Shown here piece after piece: positions 3,706 to 64,000 of a stretch of DNA of 64,000 bases (position 1 is its first letter; each line of letters starts with the position of its first letter). Below the pieces are notes generated by a model. It did not search any database. It worked only from the letters and a program-made list of their open reading frames with translations, and was not told the DNA's origin. Where the stretch lies: the NCBI RefSeq assembly GCF_030013595.1, contig NZ_CP122768.1; one strand, written 5' to 3'. Source of the stretch: Escherichia coli (GTDB taxonomy: Bacteria; Pseudomonadota; Gammaproteobacteria; Enterobacterales; Enterobacteriaceae). The position numbers were made by a program, and so were the translations under genes.

Positions 3706-4295
3706 AGTGTATTCCTTATTGTTGCTTAGTTAGGGTAGTCACTATATTTGCGACTGAGCTGGTCGCTATTTTTAACCAGGCTGGAAAATTGAGTCAATAT
3801 ATCGAAAGCGGTAGTCGTGGGTGTAAGTATGTAATGATGATGCTGCACTGGTGTTGAATATTATTCACGCCAAATTTTCCTTATTGAGCTACGTCGTCGC
3901 AAGTGGCCTCAATGATTTTAGACCATTATCAGAGGTACGGGGCGGCGGGGAGAGATTTAGTGCTGTGGAATATCGTGGTGCTGATGAATATTTATATCCC
4001 GGATTGGCAGAGAAAAAGCTTTTTTCATGCACTATTTTTGCAAATATTTCTATATGGGGGGCGGTTTTGTTGCAGATTAATTCATAAAGAAATGCATTTG
4101 GGTGTTGGCTGGAAGAGACGCTGGTAGATTTTATTGAGCCAGGAGGGGCGGGGTAATGTGCTGTATCGATATGCTTTGGCAAATGCGTGTGCCGCAGATG
4201 GAGATGAAATGCCAATAAAAAAGCCTGAGTTCGATGAGGGACGAACTCAGGCTATTGTTAAGTTTTACAGTAACACGCCGCGGCGCGTTGGCTGA

Positions 4296-5483
4296 TTAGA
4301 ACTGGTAGACTAAGCCCACAGCTACGATATCATCGGTAGCGATGCCGTTTTCTTTGTAGAAGTCGTCGTCGTTGTCCAGCAGGTTGATTTTGTAATCAAC
4401 GTAGGTGGACATGTTTTTGTTGAAGTAGTAGGTCATACCAATATCAACATATTTAACCAGATCTTTGTTGGTGTAATGATGATTGCCCTGGCTGTCGAAG
4501 TTATCACTATTTACACCGCCTAAATCCTTACCTTTAGATTGCAGGTAAGCGATGGACGGGCGCAGACCGAAGTCGAACTGATACTGAGCAACCACTTCAA
4601 AGTTTTGGGTTTTGTTAGCGATCGCATCAGCATCACCGTAACCAGTCATGTTACGGGTTTCAGCATACATAGCTGCTAAGTAAACGTTATTAGCGTCGTA
4701 TTTAGCACCAACGGTCCATGCTTCTGCTGTTTCACCGCCAGCAGTTGCATCGAAGCGATCTCCATAACGAGTGTTATGAGTACCTTTGTGAACCTGATTG
4801 TCGGTACGGTCAGAGTTAGAGTAAGCAGCGCCCAGACTTAAACCAAAGTCAAAGTCATAGGAAGTGGACATACCGAAGCCGTCGCCGTTCTCTTTAGCTA
4901 ACTTACGGCCATTACCGTTACCAGAACCTTCCTGACCGAATAATCCATCATCTTCATTATTACCCTGATATTGCAGAGCAAAGTTCAGGCCATCGACCTG
5001 GCCAAAGAAGCCATTGTTACGGTAGGTTGCAACACCATTAGCACGACCGTTCATGAAGTTGTCGGCACCAGCATAGGTATCGCCACCAAATTCTGGCAGC
5101 ATATCGGTCCATGCTTCGATGTCATATACGACACCGTAGTTACGACCATAGTCGAAAGTACCATTCTGACCAAAGCCTAAACCTGCAAATGCCAGACGCG
5201 TTGCGGTATTACCTTTGTCGCTTTCAGGACCGTTTGCGCCAATGTTAAATTCCCACTGACCATAACCAGTGAATTGGTCAGCGATCTGAGTTTCACCTTT
5301 GAAACCGATACGGGCATATGACATGTCGCCATCGCTGCCAGCATCATCAGAGAAGTAGTGCAGGCCCGCTACTTTTCCGTACAAATCCAGTTTATTACCA
5401 TCTTTATTATAGACTTCAGCCGCATTTGCTGCGCCAGCAACTAATAACGCCGGGACCAGCATTGCCAGAACTTTTCTTTTCAT
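4296..5483 (-). CDS. yedS: OmpC/OmpN-family general porin, intact (yedS-like; yedS is a pseudogene in K-12)
   Basis: Signal peptide [21 protein letters not shown], porin beta-barrel with C-terminal ...GLVYQF; start trimmed from the 5513 ORF. Confidence 0.8.
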
Positions 5484-6030
5484 TATGTATTCCCTTGTGA
5501 TTATAATCTTCATGAATATATCAATAAGTGCTGTTATCCAAAAAAAAGCACATTTGGATACTATTCTATGAAGTTCATTTTATTTTAAAGATTACATGTA
5601 ACAAATGTATTTAAAAGATTTCAAAATGTTTCCAATCTGTTTAATATAATTCAGAATTATGAATTCTGAATATAAATATTCACGAATATTATGAATGCAT
5701 ATCAATATGTTATGAGTTGAGCGGAAACATAGGGAGTATCAATGATTGTTGTGCTAAACGGCTGGTGTGATCTCGCGCACATTAATGAAGGCATAAAAAA
5801 AGCCGGCATCATGCCGGCCCAAAAAATATAAACAAGACGATAAAAGGCTAATAACGGAAGCATCATGACACAGAATAATAAAAAGGGATAATTGTAATCA
5901 GTGCTAATATATTGATTGAATGAATTAATAAAGCCGATATCAAAGATAAATAAAATCGCTCAAAACGATTTTTCCTGTATTCACTGCCATTGCGCAAAAA
6001 TTATCTATTTGTTCAAAAAATGATTGAGTC

Positions 6031-57949: not shown

Positions 57950-58207
57950 ATGCAGACTCAATTAAAGGTTAAAGGCGGTTATAGTCATTTTTTCTTCGCC
58001 AATATTGAAGTCTCACAAAGAGAGTCAAATGGCGGTTTGGTTGTCGTTAGGGATGTTAATATACCTATTACAACAACAACTCTCTCTCTGTTAGAGAATT
58101 ACGCTGTAGGGCAGGTGTTGACGTTAGAACAAAAGAATGGCGATTTTTTTGATGTGTATTACGTTGGAACTGATGGGAATAACTTTCAGTTTTCAACGCA
58201 CTGCTAA
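57950..58207 (+). CDS. hypothetical phage protein; its 3' end and downstream hairpin are duplicated at 63186..63420
   Basis: 85 aa with SD aaggag; followed by hairpin ggccctg-tgagc-agggcc. Confidence 0.4.
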   Translation: MQTQLKVKGGYSHFFFANIEVSQRESNGGLVVVRDVNIPITTTTLSLLENYAVGQVLTLEQKNGDFFDVYYVGTDGNNFQFSTHC

Positions 58208-58355
58208 TTTATCAAGGCCCTGTGAGCAGGGCCTTCGAAAGCCTACTAAAGTCTGTTTCATAGAGAGAGTTATTTGCGATTAAAAAGGTATTTGGTCACG
58301 ACCAGCACGATAGAGAATACATCTTTCAAAGTACCGCCCATATAAAACAGTTACA
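58118..58355 (+). repeat. direct repeat copy A (~235 bp, roughly 80-85% identical to 63186..63420) bracketing the cargo segment
   Basis: Shared blocks ttgacgttagaacaaaa...atttttttg.gatgt.tattacgttgga..tgatggga...ctaaagtctgtttcatagagagagtta.ttgcg.ttaaaaaggtatttggtcacgacca.cacga. Confidence 0.6.
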
Positions 58356-58479
58356 TATGCACTTGATGACTAAGCTGGCACCAGGTTAACACCATGCGCC
58401 AGCTTGAAGGAGACTTCAGTTATTGGTTTCTGAGGAAAGCGATTCTTGAAAGGGTCATTTGCGTCTGGCAGTCGACCAT

Positions 58480-58649: not shown

Positions 58650-58976
58650 ATGACTAAAAATACTCGTTTTTCCCCCGAAGTCCGTCAGCGGGCGATTCGT
58701 ATGGTTCTGGAAAGTCAGGATGAATATGACTCACAGTGGGCGGCAATTTGTTCCATTGCCCCAAAGATTGGCTGTACGCCGGAGACTCTGCGTGTCTGGG
58801 TTCGCCAGCATGAGCGGGATACCGGGGGCGGTGATGGTGGGCTCACCAGCGCTGAACGTCAGCGTCTGAAAGAGCTGGAACGTGAAAATCGTGAACTGCG
58901 CCGCAGTAACGATATCCTTCGCCAGGCTTCCGCTTATTTTGCGAAGGCGGAGTTCGACCGCCTCTGGAAAAAATGA
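58650..58976 (+). CDS. IS629 OrfA (HTH transposase accessory)
   Basis: 108 aa, leucine-zipper/HTH typical of IS3 OrfA. Confidence 0.85.
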
Positions 58977-59863
58977 TGCCACTGCTGGATAAGCTGCGTG
59001 AGCAGTACGGGGTCGGACCGGTATGTAGCGAACTGCATATTGCCCCGTCAACGTATTACCATTGTCAGCAACAGCGACATCATCCGGATAAACGCAGTGC
59101 CCGTGCGCAGCACGATGACTGGCTGAAGAAAGAGATACAGCGCGTATACGATGAAAATCACCAGGTATACGGTGTGCGTAAAGTCTGGCGTCAGTTGTTA
59201 CGGGAAGGTATCAGAGTGGCCAGATGCACTGTGGCACGTCTCATGGCAGTTATGGGACTTGCCGGTGTTCTCCGGGGTAAAAAGGTCCGCACTACCGTCA
59301 GCCGGAAAGCCGTTGCCGCAGGCGACCGCGTAAACCGTCAGTTCGTGGCAGAACGACCTGACCAGCTGTGGGTGGCTGATTTTACTTACGTCAGCACATG
59401 GCAGGGCTTCGTCTATGTGGCGTTTATCATTGATGTGTTTGCCGGATACATCGTGGGGTGGCGGGTCTCATCGTCTATGGAAACGACATTCGTGCTGGAT
59501 GCGCTGGAGCAGGCGTTGTGGGCCCGTCGTCCGTCTGGCACCATCCATCACAGCGATAAAGGCTCTCAGTATGTGTCACTGGCCTATACGGAGCGACTAA
59601 AAGAAGCCGGATTACTGGCATCAACAGGGAGTACAGGCGACTCGTATGACAACGCGATGGCTGAGAGCATCAATGGTCTTTACAAAGCGGAGGTAATACA
59701 CCGTAAGAGCTGGAAAAAACGTGCAGAAGTGGAACTGGCCACACTAACGTGGGTGGACTGGTATAACAATCGACGATTGCTGGGAAGGCTGGGCCATACT
59801 CCTCCGGCAGAAGCAGAAAAAGCTTATTATGCTTCCATCGGAAACGATGATCTGGCAGCCTGA
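58973..59863 (+). CDS. IS629 OrfB transposase (DDE; expressed by -1 frameshift with OrfA in IS3 family)
   Basis: 296 aa with DDE residues and rve integrase core. Confidence 0.85.
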
Positions 59864-60939
59864 GTTCACAGATAAAACACTCTCCAGGAAACCCGGGGCG
59901 GTTCAACTCTTTTTTCTTCGCCGGGGTTAACTTGCTCCAGACGGTATTCAAATCAGAGTCAGCATTTGCAAATGCCATTCGGGACTGATCAAGGCTTTCA
60001 GATTTTTGCGGCTGAAGTTGTGCCTGCCTCTCTTTTTGCTTCTCCGCCTCATACCTGGCCTGTTCCTGTGCCCTGAGTTGCACCTGTTGTTCCGCTTCAA
60101 TTTGACTCTGTTGGGCATCCTTAGCCTGCTGGATTTTCTGCTGCTCAACGATCGGGTTGATAATGGAAAGCGATGTCAGTAAAGCGGCGCCCACTGATAT
60201 CGGATTATCAGAAGAGGTTTTTACAAAAACGTTTTTCTGATCGTCGGTCGCCTGCACGGTGTAGGTGATACGCCTTGAAAAGGCGTTTGCGTTGTTCTCC
60301 AAAAACAGATTTTCCATTTGCTTATCGAGATTACGATTAAAATTCTTTCTGTAAGCATCTGAAAGCTGGACGTACTCGTTCGCAGGTAGAGTCATCGTCA
60401 CGGTCCCTTCACAAGTTTTCATTGTGCTGCCCGTGTCACTTGATGTTGTGGAGATTTCAGAGACGGCTAGTTTGATCTTGTCCAGTGTGCTTCGTTTGGT
60501 CTGATTAGTGACATCAGGGTATTTATCGACCTGTTCAGAGAGTCCTTCATAAGCAGATTTTTTTAATAAATCCATGAGAGCTGATTGGGTCATTTCCGAA
60601 GAACAACCGATCTCATCTTTTTTGTTATCACAGCCTGTAAGGGCAATGGCGAGTAAGAGTACTGAGTATTTTAATCTCATGAATTCCCTTTAGAGTAAGG
60701 ATTGGTTTTTAAGACGCGGTCTGTAATCAGTTCCGAGAGCTACAGTAAACAACGCTGAGCACTGAACGCATCACAGGCAAGGTAAAAGGTGATATCGGCA
60801 AAGGCTGTGAAACCTTTAATTCAACAGATGGGAACGGTATGCACAGGATCCTGTAACGACGCTCCCAAAACTGGAAACCTGTAAGGCATGTTTTCGCTGC
60901 TGAACTTAATATACGAACCTGCACTATCATGAACATATT

Positions 60940-61436
60940 TTATATCGTTATACCCCGAGTGATTGTGCCCGGCAATGGATAGTGTCCTGGAGGAATTATT
61001 TCTAATGTAAAAGGAAGATATTTAATTTCGATGTGGGATTATTACCTGTCTATAAGAACAATGACTTTATCTGGCAGTAAGCAGACATCTATTAGCTTAC
61101 TGAAGGGGGGCTGTGATTTGACCATTAACGGCATGAGATATATTGTCTATTGGTGATTGTTCTGAGGCCGATATCACGTTAACGACCAAGTAAAATAACA
61201 TGAAAAATTATTTATTAATGATTGCCAGCATTAAATGTAGTGATACCTCATTAGCAGGGTGCTCCGCAATGACTGCGATGAACTAAAAAATCAGTCATAA
61301 CCATGAAAAAAACAAGTGTATCAGCGAAATTAAATCTGGTGAAAGCATTTAATTACTTGTTAATGACGCAATAAAAACATACTATGGAAATGTAACAGCT
61401 AATCTACAGTTCTTGTCAATAGGGGCGCACAAGAAA
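60940..61436. promoter_or_regulatory. ~500-bp AT-rich non-coding spacer carrying divergent promoters for the lipoprotein gene and the NTase/DUF262 cassette
   Basis: No ORF of 60 aa or more; strongly AT-rich. Confidence 0.35.
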
Positions 61437-62027
61437 ATGTTAAATGAATTTAAGGAAAAGCTACTATCCGACGATATCCGCGATGTCTACCAACGATACC
61501 TTTTAGGACATGACATCTGGTATTTTCGGGAACAAAAAAAATCAATAACCTTTGCTAAAGATTATGATGAGTTTAAGCTATATATGTCTAAGAAGCTTGA
61601 AATTCATGTAAATAATATTGCAATTGTTGGAAGTGCTAAGATGGGATTCAGCTTGAGCCCTGATAAAAATTATCGAACATTTAACGATGAGTCAGATATA
61701 GACTTGGTTTTAGTATCCGACAGAATTTATAAATCTTCCTGGATGGCATTTATTGAATTACAATCAAAGAATTATTTGCCTGTATATGCTCCTGTAGCTA
61801 AAAATATTTTCAAAGGATTCGTGTCATTGAAGGAGTTAGATATTAGAGTCGATTTTTTTAATAAATGGTCCCGTAACGTTGAACCATTAAAAAAAGACAT
61901 TCAAACTATTTTTGGAATACCTAACGACATCAACTACAGAATTTATGACTCTTGGGAGTCCGTTGAACGCTATCACATAGCTGGGTTGAATAGTCTAAAA
62001 GATAAGTTACAAGGACAATTGATATGA
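61437..62027 (+). CDS. minimal nucleotidyltransferase-fold protein (Pol-beta superfamily; MNT/SMODS-like), 196 aa from ATG 61437 (ORF track begins at TTG 61413)
   Basis: Motif IAIVGSAKMGFSLSPDKNYRTFNDESDIDLVLV = hhhhGS...SDhDhhhh; low-GC gene. Confidence 0.55.
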   Translation: MLNEFKEKLLSDDIRDVYQRYLLGHDIWYFREQKKSITFAKDYDEFKLYMSKKLEIHVNNIAIVGSAKMGFSLSPDKNYRTFNDESDIDLVLVSDRIYKSSWMAFIELQSKNYLPVYAPVAKNIFKGFVSLKELDIRVDFFNKWSRNVEPLKKDIQTIFGIPNDINYRIYDSWESVERYHIAGLNSLKDKLQGQLI

Positions 62028-63082
62028 GAGCTATTGATCTAATTAAAGTTGAATCGAAAGACATTAAATGGTTGACGGATAATTTGAAATCAGGTGTTAT
62101 TACAGTTGATAATTCATATCAGAGAAAATATATCTGGCAGCAAAAAGACCAAGTGGCCTTAATTGAGACAATATTAATTGGCTACCCAATCCCTGAGATT
62201 TACCTTTGGGCAAATAATACTGATCCTGACACTGGAGATACTAAATATTCAATTGTAGATGGACAGCAAAGGCTAACCACAATCCAGCGATATTTAAATG
62301 ATGAGTTTAAGTTAAGCAAAGCAGCTATAGATGATAAAGAAGCCGACTATAGTGGGAAAATTTTTTCAGAATTGTCGGCAGATAACAAACGTGATTTTTG
62401 GCGATACCAATTCTCATCCAGATTTATTAATGAATCATTGAGATATGATGAGATTGCAAAGTTATTTTTACGTCTAAATAGAACAAATACTACGTTAAAT
62501 CCTCAAGAACTTCGTAATGCTGAATTTAATGGCGAGTTTTTAAGATTAGCCGAAGAAATTGCACAAAATGAATTTTGGGATAATTATAAGATATTTACTC
62601 AGTCAGATATCCGTCGGATGCAAGACATTCAATTCATCAGCACATTATTGATTTTCTTACGAATGGGTATTGAGCAGGATAATACACAAAAATCAATTAA
62701 TCGAGTGTATGATCAATACAATGAGAATTACCCTGAGGCGACTGAGGACAGAATTATCTTTAACGAAGTGTTAAGGATCATATCTCAAATTATCAACAAT
62801 AAACAAGTATTAGAATCAGTTGTAAAGAAAAAAGGCCATTTGTATTTTATATTTGTGCTGGCATACTATTATTTACAGCTTAGTAAATCTAAGCTTGTTG
62901 ATATGAATGTTATTAGTTCAAAGCTCGAGGATTTTTTTAATATTTATGAGTTAAATGAACAAGATAACCCCCATCCACTGGTTGAGGAATATAGATTCCT
63001 CAGCCAAGAGGGTTCAAAGAAGAGTCATAACAGACAGCGTAGATTTGATATTTTGAAAGAATTTTGCTCTTTACATGATTAA
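62024..63082 (+). CDS. DUF262 (ParB/Srx-like, GmrS/SspE/DndB-type N-terminal domain) protein with an uncharacterised ~120-aa C-terminal region
   Basis: Hallmark motif YSIVDGQQRLTTIQRYL; ATGA start/stop overlap with the NTase-fold gene. Confidence 0.7.
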   Translation: MRAIDLIKVESKDIKWLTDNLKSGVITVDNSYQRKYIWQQKDQVALIETILIGYPIPEIYLWANNTDPDTGDTKYSIVDGQQRLTTIQRYLNDEFKLSKAAIDDKEADYSGKIFSELSADNKRDFWRYQFSSRFINESLRYDEIAKLFLRLNRTNTTLNPQELRNAEFNGEFLRLAEEIAQNEFWDNYKIFTQSDIRRMQDIQFISTLLIFLRMGIEQDNTQKSINRVYDQYNENYPEATEDRIIFNEVLRIISQIINNKQVLESVVKKKGHLYFIFVLAYYYLQLSKSKLVDMNVISSKLEDFFNIYELNEQDNPHPLVEEYRFLSQEGSKKSHNRQRRFDILKEFCSLHD

Positions 63083-63185
63083 ATGACGAAAGTGGGTTGT
63101 TTATAAGAATTGAATAAACAACCCATCATTTTAATGTACTCTGAATCCTCTCATTCTTAGTGAAATATTGTTTTTAGAACACGTA

Positions 63186-63420
63186 TTGACGTTAGAACAA
63201 AAAATAGATTTTTTTGTGATGTATTACGTTGGAGTTGATGGGATAATTATATGTTTTCAATACATTGTTAATTTATCAAGACCCTGCGACTAAGGTGTTC
63301 GAAAATCGACTAAAGTCTGTTTCATAGAGAGAGTTACTTGCGTTTAAAAAGGTATTTGGTCACGACCAACACGAGGCCGAATACCTCAGTTTAAGTACCG
63401 CTCATGTACAACAGTAACGT
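63186..63420 (+). repeat. direct repeat copy B (degenerate copy of the 3' end of the 57950 gene plus downstream region)
   Basis: See copy A. Confidence 0.6.
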
Positions 63421-63603
63421 TTGCTGATAGTGTCGCATTATCTTGCAGAGGACGCAGGTTAAATAGAACAAGCATATGTACCTGGTTTTTGTAATATTGG
63501 GTATAACATATGCTTTATAGGAGCGCGCTCAATGACCAACCGAGAAAGAATCTCCTGACAGATACAGTTATTTTCACCCTCTCCATAACATAAGGGAGTT
63601 TTT

Positions 63604-64000
63604 ATGTCGGAAGTGAGTATCGTAGAAGACGCCCCACGCCCAGTAGTCGCCGAATTGGCAGATCTGTTACAAGCACAACCATTTCATCAGAATCAATATG
63701 ATAACTTATGTCGCTTTATGATTTATTTTTCCCTGGCTGAATCAAAGTTAACATCAATGGCTGCTGGCCTTGGTAGAACTGACGCACTGGCACAGGAACT
63801 GGTTGTGCATAACGGCATGGACAGTCAGACCATAGATGATTGCTATCGTTATTTTATACGACGCTATCGAGACAGCCCTGATAGCGATTACCGCTTCAAT
63901 AAACTGGCCCCGCCTGAGTATGTTAAGAATGCAATCAGAGAACGCTTTGTTACGCTACTTCAGATACAGTCTCCAACAATTGAAGATAAAATCAGCTTTG
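63604..64000 (+). CDS. phage protein, 5' partial view (ORF runs off the window end)
   Basis: ATG at 63604 preceded by aagggag SD; open to 64000. Confidence 0.4.
   Translation, partial: MSEVSIVEDAPRPVVAELADLLQAQPFHQNQYDNLCRFMIYFSLAESKLTSMAAGLGRTDALAQELVVHNGMDSQTIDDCYRYFIRRYRDSPDSDYRFNKLAPPEYVKNAIRERFVTLLQIQSPTIEDKISF

What the first reader, a model, noticed from the sequence alone, without database searches (positions are those of the whole stretch)
61437..63082. Translationally coupled minimal-NTase + DUF262 (DGQQR) two-gene cassette in a prophage moron hotspot: candidate novel defence/TA-like system
Two AT-rich genes sit in prophage cargo next to an IS629 insertion, the opposite of the surrounding ~50% GC genome. 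Gene 1 (196 aa) carries the Pol-beta-type minimal nucleotidyltransferase signature hhhhGS-x20-SDhDhhhh (IAIVGSAKMGF...SDIDLVLV), the fold used by MNT antitoxins, AbiEii, SMODS and CD-NTases. Gene 2 (352 aa) starts with an ATGA overlap and carries the DUF262 hallmark SIVDGQQRLTTI. That is the NTP-binding ParB/Srx-like module found at the N-terminus of GmrSD, BrxU and SspE and in DndB. Unlike GmrSD it has no recognisable DUF1524/HNH nuclease tail, only an uncharacterised ~120-aa C-terminus. I am not aware of a named defence system consisting of a small NTase plus a stand-alone DUF262 protein. The position (lambdoid late/nin-side moron region, bracketed by ~235-bp direct repeats, beside a lipoprotein moron) is typical for anti-phage cargo. 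Possible modes: NTase-produced nucleotide signal or NMP-ylation controlling a DUF262 NTPase effector, or an MNT-like antitoxin neutralising a DUF262 toxin.
Basis: partly seen in the sequence, partly recalled or inferred. Interest (0 to 1): 0.85.

Follow-up and report, generated by a model that had tools for sequence, protein, structure and literature searches.

The report
Nucleotidyltransferase plus DUF262 prophage defence pair
Two overlapping genes carried as cargo by an E. coli prophage, a very divergent nucleotidyltransferase and a ParB-like DUF262 DNA-sensing NTPase, form a widespread and strictly linked pair that sits in known anti-phage hotspots, matched no named defence system in the resources searched, and is therefore a good but untested candidate for a new anti-phage system.

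Summary
Gene 1 (61437-62027, 196 aa) and gene 2 (62024-63082, 352 aa) overlap by ATGA in a 31-34% GC island inside a lambdoid prophage.

- **Gene 2** is a full-length relative of NsnA, the Menshen sensor (DUF262 plus the helical ParBDB domain). All three DUF262 motifs are invariant and there is no nuclease domain.
- **Gene 1** has no Pfam hit of its own. Across relatives down to 23% identity only G65, S86, D87 and D89 are invariant. A third of relatives give sub-threshold Pol-beta NTase hits, and the best structural match is an MNT antitoxin. I read it as a very divergent MntA-like nucleotidyltransferase (about 75% sure).
- **Linkage:** the gene 1 family has about 1,500 clusters at 50% identity. 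In 69 of 70 non-redundant loci with enough sequence downstream, the DUF262 gene follows directly, usually overlapping. There is no conserved third gene.
- **Context:** P2 and P4 defence hotspots, and neighbours such as type I R-M and SIR2-HerA.
- **New finding:** two clades add an operonic C5 DNA methyltransferase, giving an R-M-like trio.
- **Naming:** no PADLOC (2023) model or paper I could search names the pair. DefensePredictor lists a probable allele as an untested predicted defence gene.

Verdict: a new variant of DUF262-based defence. The mechanism is unproven.

The parts
61118..61146 (+). Candidate sigma-70-type promoter (TTGACC, 17 nt spacer, TATTGT) about 290 nt upstream of gene 1. 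Weak and unverified.
   Evidence: Consensus scan, 9 of 12 matches. The region as a whole holds fewer such sites than its shuffles do, so this is only a candidate.
61437..62027 (+). Gene 1: a 196-aa, very divergent Pol-beta-type (MntA-like) nucleotidyltransferase. Putative active site G65-S66 and S86-D87-x-D89.
62024..62027 (+). ATGA overlap of the gene 1 stop and the gene 2 start (translational coupling).
   Evidence: Sequence. The overlap or near-abutment (-17 to +11 nt) is conserved in essentially all loci from Bacillus to Bacteroidota.
62024..63082 (+). Gene 2: a 352-aa NsnA-like protein with an N-terminal ParB/Srx-fold DUF262 NTPase domain (QRxxxW, DGQQR at 79-83, FLRLN) and a C-terminal helical ParBDB-type domain. 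No nuclease domain.
63092..63126 (+). Terminator-like hairpin 10 nt after the gene 2 stop codon: 13-bp stem, 9-nt loop, followed by CAUUUUAAU.
   Evidence: RNA fold -16 kcal/mol, z = -4.25 against shuffles. The simple terminator scan missed it because its loop exceeds 8 nt.
58176..58360 (.). Left copy of the direct repeat that brackets the variable cargo slot (IS3 element, lprI-like gene and the gene pair).
   Evidence: the repeat finder: 185 nt at 80% identity. Pairwise alignment.
63240..63424 (.). Right copy of the direct repeat. It is conserved prophage backbone, present at about 80% identity in about 400 E. coli genomes that lack the pair.
   Evidence: 430 of the 432 E. coli records matched only this segment. 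The equivalent site in strain ZH063 carries a different cargo gene.

Best explanation
The two genes form a self-contained, co-translated anti-phage (anti-mobile-element) module built on the DUF262 sensor scheme.

**Shown**
- Gene 2 is an NsnA-type DUF262 plus ParBDB protein with an intact NTP-binding site and no nuclease domain.
- Gene 1 is a divergent Pol-beta-fold nucleotidyltransferase-like protein whose GS and DxD positions are under absolute conservation.
- The two genes are inherited and diverge together. No third gene is conserved.
- The pair sits in defence hotspots.

**Inferred**
- By analogy with GmrSD, BrxU, SspE, Dazbog and the predicted role of NsnA, gene 2 binds DNA, uses NTP binding and hydrolysis as a switch, and reads a feature of foreign DNA. 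That feature is most likely its cytosine modification state, because two clades of the family carry a C5 cytosine methyltransferase as the first gene of the same operon.
- On recognition, gene 2 activates or recruits gene 1, which takes the place that nucleases or HEPN RNases hold in the sister systems. Gene 1 then acts as the effector by transferring nucleotides (probably AMP) to a nucleic-acid or protein target, which stops phage replication or host growth.
- The clade in this window has no methyltransferase of its own. It would therefore either respond to a phage-specific DNA feature or rely on a host methylase.
For: **Domain calls:** (gene 2; gene 1).

**Linkage**
- 69 of 70 non-redundant loci with enough sequence downstream have the DUF262 gene directly after gene 1. 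The single exception is a deletion remnant.
- Start/stop overlap is conserved across phyla.
- Pairwise distances of the two proteins correlate at r = 0.94 over 58 non-redundant pairs.
- There is no conserved third gene.

**Defence context**
- P4 satellite psu-int hotspot in Klebsiella.
- P2 gpA-portal (tin/old) hotspot in E. coli and Yersinia, the latter next to a PvuRts1I-like enzyme.
- Directly after HsdR in Priestia and after HsdS.
- Directly before SIR2-HerA, and near a TIR protein.
- PADLOC hits among neighbours: PDC-S39, AbiEii, type I R-M, mad2.
- All seven IMG/VR viral contigs found with gene 1 carry the pair.

**Methyltransferase link:** a C5 MTase abuts gene 1 on the same strand in 25 of 66 non-redundant loci with upstream sequence. 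These fall in two clades with two different MTase families.

**Precedent:** DUF262 acts as a modification sensor coupled to a variable effector in the literature (PMC12065111, PMC10952713). Dazbog is triggered by a phage cytosine methylase (bioRxiv 10.1101/2022.08.27.505566).

**Tolerance of loss:** either gene alone seems tolerated, which fits a sensor plus a latent effector. One genome has an intact gene 2 with a truncated gene 1 (L014), and one has an intact gene 1 with a fragmented gene 2 (L029).

**Independent prediction:** DefensePredictor Table S10 lists a 196-aa E. coli protein, very probably an allele of gene 1, with log-odds 10.7 as a 'predicted novel defense gene'.
Against: - No experiment exists. 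Defence is inferred from context only.
- The closest named relatives of gene 1 are MntA antitoxins, which regulate rather than kill. The gene order (small NTase first, overlapping the larger gene) is that of antitoxin then toxin.
- No known toxic NTase family (AbiEii, MenT) is detectably related.
- The clade in this window lacks the methyltransferase, so modification sensing is extrapolated from sister clades.
- The metagenome sample that gave the MTase frequency was seeded with Bacillus-like sequences, so 25 of 66 is not a population estimate.
Confidence: 0.45

Rival explanations
1. Type VII toxin-antitoxin-like control. Gene 1 is an MntA-type adenylyltransferase that keeps the DUF262 protein inactive by AMPylating it. 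The DUF262/ParBDB protein is then the toxic or restricting component, for example an NTP-dependent DNA clamp or a cryptic ParB-type DNase. Infection relieves the modification.
For: - Gene order and the 4-nt overlap mimic mntA-hepT.
- The ParB fold has been described as a DNase domain in R-M contexts (PMC3710099).
Against: - One genome (L014) keeps an intact gene 2 with all motifs while gene 1 has lost its first 123 residues, including GS and DxD.
- Two more genomes have frameshifted gene 1 with intact gene 2, although these frameshifts lie in homopolymers and may be sequencing errors.
- Gene 2 has no recognised toxic domain.
- In every characterised DUF262 system the domain is a sensor or switch, not the killing module (PMC12065111).
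Confidence: 0.2
2. The pair is the restriction half of an R-M-like system. It attacks DNA lacking a specific 5-methylcytosine pattern. In this clade the protective methylation is supplied in trans, for example by the host Dcm or another resident methylase.
For: - The three-gene operon C5-MTase, NTase, DUF262 is conserved in two clades, with abutting or overlapping genes.
- In Bacillus the trio forms a three-gene island between guaA and a permease gene.
- A weak PADLOC REase_II hit falls on the DUF262 domain.
Against: - No methyltransferase lies next to the pair in the window, in L001, or in any P2, P4 or lambdoid context.
- Phages grown on dcm+ hosts would already be protected, so the benefit would be small.
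- No nuclease is present.
- Dazbog shows the opposite polarity, with DUF262 triggered by methylated DNA.
Confidence: 0.15
3. Signalling pair. The NTase makes a nucleotide or oligonucleotide ligand that binds the ParB/Srx-type pocket of the DUF262 protein and switches it on or off (CBASS-like or Hailong-like logic).
For: - The NTase-like active-site positions are invariant.
- DUF262 has a conserved nucleotide pocket.
- The published DefensePredictor table gives a weak HHblits hit of the probable gene 1 allele to a CBASS cyclase (probability 68.6).
Against: - My searches found no SMODS, CD-NTase or mCpol match.
- No known DUF262 protein is regulated by a second messenger.
Confidence: 0.08
4. Not a defence system. 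The pair serves the mobile element itself, for example in DNA modification, regulation (DndB-like repressor) or maintenance.
For: - DndB, a DGQHR/DUF262 relative, is a transcriptional regulator. There is a weak TIGR03187 hit.
- ParB-fold proteins act in partition.
- No phenotype is known for the pair.
Against: - The pair occurs in unrelated mobile elements and in plain chromosomal islands, so it is not tied to one element's biology.
- It occupies slots that hold defence genes in other strains.
- Its closest homologue is a validated defence protein, NsnA.
Confidence: 0.1

Closest known systems
Menshen (NsnA-NsnB-NsnC)
   Same: Gene 2 is the closest relative of NsnA. The PADLOC NsnA model matches at 4.3e-41 over the whole length, and likewise for orthologues from every clade. 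The architecture is the same: ParB-DUF262 plus the helical ParBDB domain, with QRxxxW, DGxQR and FxxxN motifs (PMC12065111).
   Different: There is no NsnB ATPase and no NsnC inPIN-nuclease effector, either in the window or in any of about 70 loci. Instead a small NTase-like gene lies upstream and overlaps gene 2.
PD-T4-2 (DUF262 protein plus HEPN protein, E. coli ECOR65)
   Same: It is a two-gene E. coli system built on a nuclease-less DUF262 protein. Gene 2 hits PD-T4-2_A at 2.5e-19.
   Different: The partner there is a HEPN (RiboL-PSP type) protein (PMC10952713). Gene 1 has no PADLOC hit and is an alpha/beta NTase-like protein, not an all-helical HEPN.
GmrSD / BrxU / SspE (DUF262-DUF1524 type IV and phosphorothioate-sensing enzymes)
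   Different: There is no DUF1524/HNH nuclease domain. The catalytic partner is a separate NTase-like protein.
Dazbog (DzbA/DzbB)
   Same: It is a two-gene system with one DUF262 protein and an uncharacterised partner. [quoted passage not shown]
   Different: Neither gene hits a Dazbog model in PADLOC at E <= 1. In Dazbog the DUF262 gene is first. Here it is second.
HepT-MntA (HEPN-MNT, type VII toxin-antitoxin)
   Same: Gene 1 shares the minimal NTase signature (hhhhGS ... SDhDhhhh). MNT proteins are its best structural matches, and MntA is the commonest NCBIfam hit among its relatives. The gene order, small NTase first and overlapping, is also the same.
   Different: All matches are below family thresholds. 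Gene 1 is about twice the size of MNT, with an extra N-terminal helical region. The partner is DUF262, not HEPN.

Membership tests
Menshen (NsnABC) | NsnA: ParB-DUF262 plus ParBDB protein | tested here: met
   PADLOC NsnA 4.3e-41, residues 9-348 against profile positions 48-379 of 385. DUF262 motifs are invariant.
Menshen (NsnABC) | NsnB ATPase gene immediately downstream of nsnA | tested here: not met
   Gene 2 is followed by a hairpin and prophage backbone. No conserved downstream gene exists in any locus.
Menshen (NsnABC) | NsnC effector (inPIN plus nuclease/toxin domain) | tested here: not met
   No such ORF is present. Gene 1 has no PADLOC hit.
PD-T4-2 | HEPN-domain partner (PD-T4-2_B) | tested here: not met
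   Gene 1 has 0 PADLOC families at E <= 1. Its model is alpha/beta, not a HEPN helical bundle.
GmrSD / BrxU / SspE | C-terminal DUF1524 / His-Me (HNH) nuclease domain | tested here: not met
Dazbog | Matches to the DzbA and DzbB models | tested here: not met
   No Dazbog model is among the PADLOC hits for either protein at E <= 1.
Pol-beta-type nucleotidyltransferase superfamily | hG[GS] motif and [DE]h[DE]h motif on adjacent elements of an alpha-beta-alpha-beta core | tested here: met
   G65-S66 follow strand 61-64, and D87/D89 open strand 88-93. These are the only invariant residues in 60 relatives.
Pol-beta-type nucleotidyltransferase superfamily | Significant match to a family model or structure; presence of a third catalytic carboxylate | tested here: inconclusive
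HepT-MntA type VII toxin-antitoxin | HEPN toxin partner, and AMPylation of the toxin by the NTase | tested here: not met
   The partner is DUF262, not HEPN. AMPylation cannot be tested with these tools.
CBASS (CD-NTase / SMODS plus effector) | CD-NTase or SMODS cyclase plus a nucleotide-sensing effector (SAVED, STING, patatin and the like) | tested here: not met
AbiE / MenAT (DUF1814 NTase toxins) | AbiEii/MenT-type NTase plus an AbiEi-type antitoxin | tested here: not met
   No Pfam or PADLOC AbiEii hit for gene 1 or its relatives.
Restriction-modification (type II-like) | Cognate DNA methyltransferase in the same operon | tested here: not met
   There is none in the window or in clade A loci. 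It is met in clades B and C of the family: 25 of 66 non-redundant loci.

The most novel reading that the evidence does not exclude
The family is a new kind of modification-guided immunity in which the restriction step is not DNA cleavage. A DUF262/ParBDB clamp reads the C5-methylation state of DNA and directs a dedicated minimal nucleotidyltransferase to nucleotidylylate foreign DNA ends, tRNA or a replication protein. This would be an R-M-like system whose 'R' is an NTase. Phage- and satellite-borne versions such as this one would have shed the methyltransferase.
Probability: 0.15. Interest if true: 0.85.

Novelty: new variant of a known kind. Interest (0 to 1): 0.62.

Why it matters
DUF262 proteins are a recurring sensor in bacterial immunity (GmrSD, BrxU, SspE, Menshen, PD-T4-2, Dazbog). 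So far they have been found paired with nucleases or RNases. This pair would add a nucleotidyltransferase as the partner.

The family is large: about 1,500 clusters at 50% identity, spanning Proteobacteria, Bacteroidota, Bacillota and Desulfobacterota. It travels on P2-like and lambdoid prophages and on P4-like satellites.

The clades that carry an operonic C5 methyltransferase offer a direct experimental handle on what the sensor reads. If the system is validated, three things follow:
- a new effector chemistry for DUF262 systems;
- a likely case of an R-M-like trio being reduced to a portable two-gene module on phages;
- a model to add to defence-annotation tools, which at present would at most flag gene 2 as an orphan NsnA.

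Tried and rejected
- **Direct family searches with gene 1** gave nothing usable: Pfam, NCBIfam, PADLOC, and PDB by sequence, including profiles of 37 and 60 relatives.
- **Foldseek of the gene 1 model against PDB** gave nothing significant. The AFDB libraries were not available.
- **Menshen, PD-T4-2, Dazbog, GmrSD, CBASS and AbiE** were each rejected as memberships because a defining partner or domain is missing (see the membership tests).
- **A third conserved gene** was sought and not found. An HNH gene after gene 2 occurs in only one metagenomic lineage.
- **A 392-aa protein that joins the first 141 residues of gene 1 to a DUF262 domain** (P0347) looks like a deletion or frameshift product rather than a true fusion. 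I did not use it as evidence.
- **Frameshifted gene 1 copies in L012 and L013** were set aside as evidence against the toxin-antitoxin model. The shifts fall in T7-T9 runs and may be sequencing errors.
- **GenBank phage isolates** hold no copy, by DNA or by protein. Only two plasmid records do.
- **Literature searches** for a named NTase plus DUF262 system found none. Coverage is limited to open-access papers and bioRxiv, DefenseFinder could not be run, and PADLOC-DB 2.0.0 dates from 2023.
- **The name IS629** was not verified.
Full report
**1. The observation**

The two ORFs are exactly as described. Gene 1 runs 61437-62027 (+, 196 aa) and gene 2 runs 62024-63082 (+, 352 aa), sharing ATGA at 62024-62027. 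GC is 0.31-0.34 over about 60.8-63.4 kb, against 0.50-0.57 in the neighbouring phage replication genes and IS element. A 13-bp hairpin (63092-63126, -16 kcal/mol, z = -4.25) follows gene 2. Only a weak promoter-like site (61118-61146) precedes gene 1.

**2. The setting**

- A near-identical locus exists in only 2 of 5,426 complete E. coli genomes (98.5% identity). It is annotated there as 'hypothetical protein' plus 'DUF262 domain-containing protein'.
- That locus lies in a lambdoid prophage, between the replicative helicase with its small nin-type genes and DUF1367/DUF1364/antiterminator Q.
- In the window, an IS3-family element (58650-59863, ALIL pseudoknot) has truncated an LprI-family lipoprotein gene (59670-60680, - strand).
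- The cargo slot is bracketed by a 185-nt direct repeat at 80% identity (58176-58360 and 63240-63424).
- The right copy is common prophage backbone, found in about 400 E. coli genomes that lack the pair. In strain ZH063 the same slot holds a different gene. It is therefore a variable cargo site.
- The exact proteins occur on 86 and 55 E. coli contigs in the large collection.

**3. Gene 2**

- Pfam gives GmrSD_N (DUF262) at 1e-24 and nothing else.
- In PADLOC the best hit is NsnA, the first protein of Menshen, at 4.3e-41 over residues 9-348. PD-T4-2_A follows at 2.5e-19, with weaker hits to REase_II, SspE and the HEC-05/06 models limited mainly to the DUF262 domain.
- In 31 homologues down to 43% identity, QRxxxW (Q33, R34, W38), DGQQR (79-83) and FLRLN (148-152) are invariant.
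- The AF2 model (pLDDT 83) has a ParB/Srx-type alpha/beta domain followed by an all-helical domain.
- Gene 2 is therefore an NsnA-type 'ParB-DUF262 plus ParBDB' protein (nomenclature of PMC12065111) without any nuclease domain.

**4. Gene 1**

- The window protein hits no Pfam, NCBIfam or PADLOC model and no PDB sequence. Its only hit is the function-unknown phrog_32008.
- The family is nonetheless large: 121 clusters in the indexed search and 1,529 clusters at 50% identity with a profile (824 at E <= 1e-10). Nearly all members are 190-220 aa.
- In 60 representatives down to 23% identity, the only invariant residues are G65, S86, D87 and D89. S66, G70, S72, F82, F98, W102 and Y179 are nearly invariant. 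This is the hG[GS] ... [DE]h[DE]h signature of Pol-beta-type nucleotidyltransferases.
- Scanned one by one, 20 of 60 relatives give sub-threshold hits to PF01909 (best E 5.6e-4) and 5 of 60 to PF18765. In NCBIfam the commonest hit is MntA_antitoxin (6 of 60, best E 0.0095).
- The AF2 model is confident (pLDDT 95). GS follows strand 61-64 and D87/D89 open strand 88-93.
- Foldseek finds nothing significant; its best match is TUT4 at E = 0.55. I found no invariant third acidic residue.
- I conclude that gene 1 is a very divergent, probably active, MntA-like NTase (about 75% confidence). It is not a member of any curated family.

**5. The pair as a unit**

- I collected 121 loci: 14 species genomes, 7 IMG/VR viral contigs, 80 metagenome contigs and targeted look-ups.
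- After dereplication at 90% identity there are 75 gene 1 clusters. Of the 70 with at least 400 bp downstream, 69 have a DUF262 gene directly after gene 1. The exception is a deletion remnant.
- Spacing runs from -17 to +11 nt and is most often the same 4-nt overlap, from Bacillus to Bacteroidota.
- Pairwise distances of the two proteins correlate at r = 0.94 over 58 non-redundant pairs.
- No third gene is conserved.

**6. Contexts**

- Klebsiella: between psu and the integrase of a P4-like satellite.
- E. coli (a 49%-identical variant listed in 206 index blocks) and Yersinia: between gpA and the portal gene of P2-like prophages. In Yersinia it lies beside a PvuRts1I-like enzyme and HicB.
- Priestia: directly after hsdR. 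A delta-proteobacterial MAG: directly after hsdS. Labilibaculum: directly before SIR2-HerA. Ferruginibacter: near Band_7 and TIR genes.
- PADLOC models hit by neighbours in the 14 genomes include PDC-S39, AbiEii, type I R-M, SIR2, HerA and mad2. Many other neighbours are housekeeping genes, as expected for small islands.
- The psu-int and gpA-portal sites are the P4 and P2 defence hotspots, as I recall them from Rousset et al. 2022; the bioRxiv preprint (10.1101/2021.01.21.427644) was queried here only for DUF262/NTase terms and holds none.
- GenBank phage isolates hold no copy.

**7. An unexpected finding: methyltransferase-linked clades**

- In Bacillus a C5 cytosine methyltransferase (PF00145) ends 18 bp before gene 1. 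The three genes form an island between guaA and a permease gene.
- In Flammeovirga a different, larger C5 methyltransferase abuts gene 1.
- In metagenomes seeded with Bacillus-like sequences, almost every member of that clade has the homologous methyltransferase abutting or overlapping gene 1 on the same strand.
- Overall, 25 of 66 non-redundant loci with upstream sequence have it. They fall in two clades: B (Bacillota and gut metagenomes) and C (Flammeovirga-like, with gene 2 about 500 aa).
- Clade A, which holds the window along with other Proteobacteria and Bacteroidota, and clade D have none.
- PADLOC still calls gene 2 of every clade NsnA and finds nothing for gene 1.
- Part of the family is therefore an R-M-like trio. 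The phage-borne clade is the two-gene core.

**8. Mechanism**

- In characterised systems the DUF262 domain is an NTP-driven sensor of DNA modification that controls an attached or adjacent effector (GmrSD, BrxU, SspE; predicted for NsnA; PMC12065111, PMC10952713).
- Dazbog, another nuclease-less DUF262 system, is triggered by a phage cytosine methylase (bioRxiv 10.1101/2022.08.27.505566).
- The operonic C5 methyltransferases in clades B and C point to cytosine modification state as the feature read here as well.
- Gene 1 is the only other component and keeps a strictly conserved NTase-like active site. I therefore favour gene 2 as the sensor and gene 1 as the effector, acting by nucleotidyl transfer to a nucleic-acid or protein target (confidence 0.45).
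- The main rival is a type VII toxin-antitoxin-like scheme, in which MntA-like gene 1 AMPylates and silences gene 2. It fits the homology and gene order. It is weakened by L014, which has an intact gene 2 with all motifs beside a gene 1 that lacks its catalytic half. It is also weakened by the lack of any toxic domain in gene 2.
- L029 shows the converse, an intact gene 1 with a fragmented gene 2.
- Other rivals are restriction dependent on a host methylase, a nucleotide signal, and a non-defence role.

**9. Comparison and novelty**

- The pair fails the membership tests for Menshen (no NsnB or NsnC), PD-T4-2 (no HEPN), GmrSD-type enzymes (no nuclease), Dazbog (no model hits), HepT-MntA (no HEPN), CBASS and AbiE.
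- I found no paper that names an NTase plus DUF262 system.
- The nearest mention is in DefensePredictor (PMC13092281). Table S10 lists WP_064226191.1, a 196-aa, 591-bp E. coli 'hypothetical protein', with log-odds 10.7 as a 'predicted novel defense gene' and a weak HHblits hit to a CBASS nucleotidyltransferase.
- By its length and by the run of accession numbers around it in L001, this is very probably an allele of gene 1. I could not check the sequence.
- Their table of cloned units contains no DUF262 entry, so the pair appears to be untested.

**10. Verdict**

The pair is real, well conserved and unnamed in the resources I could search. It is a new variant of DUF262-based defence, with a candidate new effector chemistry and an R-M-like sister form. 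Defence itself and the mechanism remain inferences.

Limits of this assessment: PADLOC-DB dates from 2023, DefenseFinder was unavailable, no complex prediction was possible, and the literature coverage was open-access only.

Noticed in passing
L026-L029, L015, L042-L091, L117, L120 (related loci): In two clades of the family a C5 cytosine DNA methyltransferase (PF00145) is the first gene of the operon. It abuts or overlaps the NTase-like gene, giving a conserved trio of MTase, NTase and DUF262. This holds in 25 of 66 non-redundant loci with upstream sequence. The window's clade lacks it.
   Followed up: yes
window 61853-61859 (T7) and 61889-61895 (A7) inside gene 1; L012 6416-6424; L013 6413-6419: Gene 1 carries homopolymer runs at the conserved D-F-F codons. 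The orthologues in Pseudomonas neustonica (T9) and Massilia sp. H-1 (T7) are frameshifted at or close to this tract while gene 2 stays intact. This could be slippage-based on/off switching or merely sequencing error.
   Followed up: partly
window 58650-59863 and 59670-60680: An IS3-family element (orfA 108 aa, orfB 296 aa, ALIL frameshift pseudoknot at 58931-59047) has inserted into the 3' end of an LprI-family lipoprotein gene on the - strand. That ORF now reads into the IS. In the near-identical prophage L001 the lprI-like gene is intact (315 aa) and an IS3 copy lies just after gene 2 instead.
   Followed up: partly
L020-L025 (E. coli P2-like prophages), 4279-5010 and 5119-5781: In the P2 gpA-portal hotspot the pair is preceded by two further ORFs (243 and 220 aa) with no Pfam hit. 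These are possibly another unrecognised cargo or defence gene set.
   Followed up: no
L098 7513-8583 and L106: In one metagenomic lineage an HNH_4 endonuclease gene starts 12 nt after the DUF262 gene. The arrangement resembles a split GmrS/GmrD with an NTase in front. It is not conserved elsewhere.
   Followed up: partly
L015, L117, L120 (clade C): The DUF262 protein is about 490-514 aa here, some 150 residues longer at the C-terminus. Pfam finds nothing in the extension, so an extra effector domain cannot be excluded.
   Followed up: no
window 62469-62528 (gene 2 residues 149-168): The most conserved stretch of gene 2 (LRLNRTNTTLNPQELRNAEF, many residues invariant) is the only segment that AF2 models with pLDDT below 50. 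It may be a loop that becomes ordered only on a ligand, DNA or the partner protein.
   Followed up: no
window 63605-64000 (+): An ORF starts at 63605 and runs off the end of the window. Its counterpart in L001 is a 182-aa hypothetical protein (WP_112024295.1). I did not examine it.
   Followed up: no
P0347 (protein from the representative library): A 392-aa protein joins residues 2-141 of the gene 1 profile to a DUF262 domain. It is probably a deletion or frameshift product rather than a genuine fusion.
   Followed up: partly
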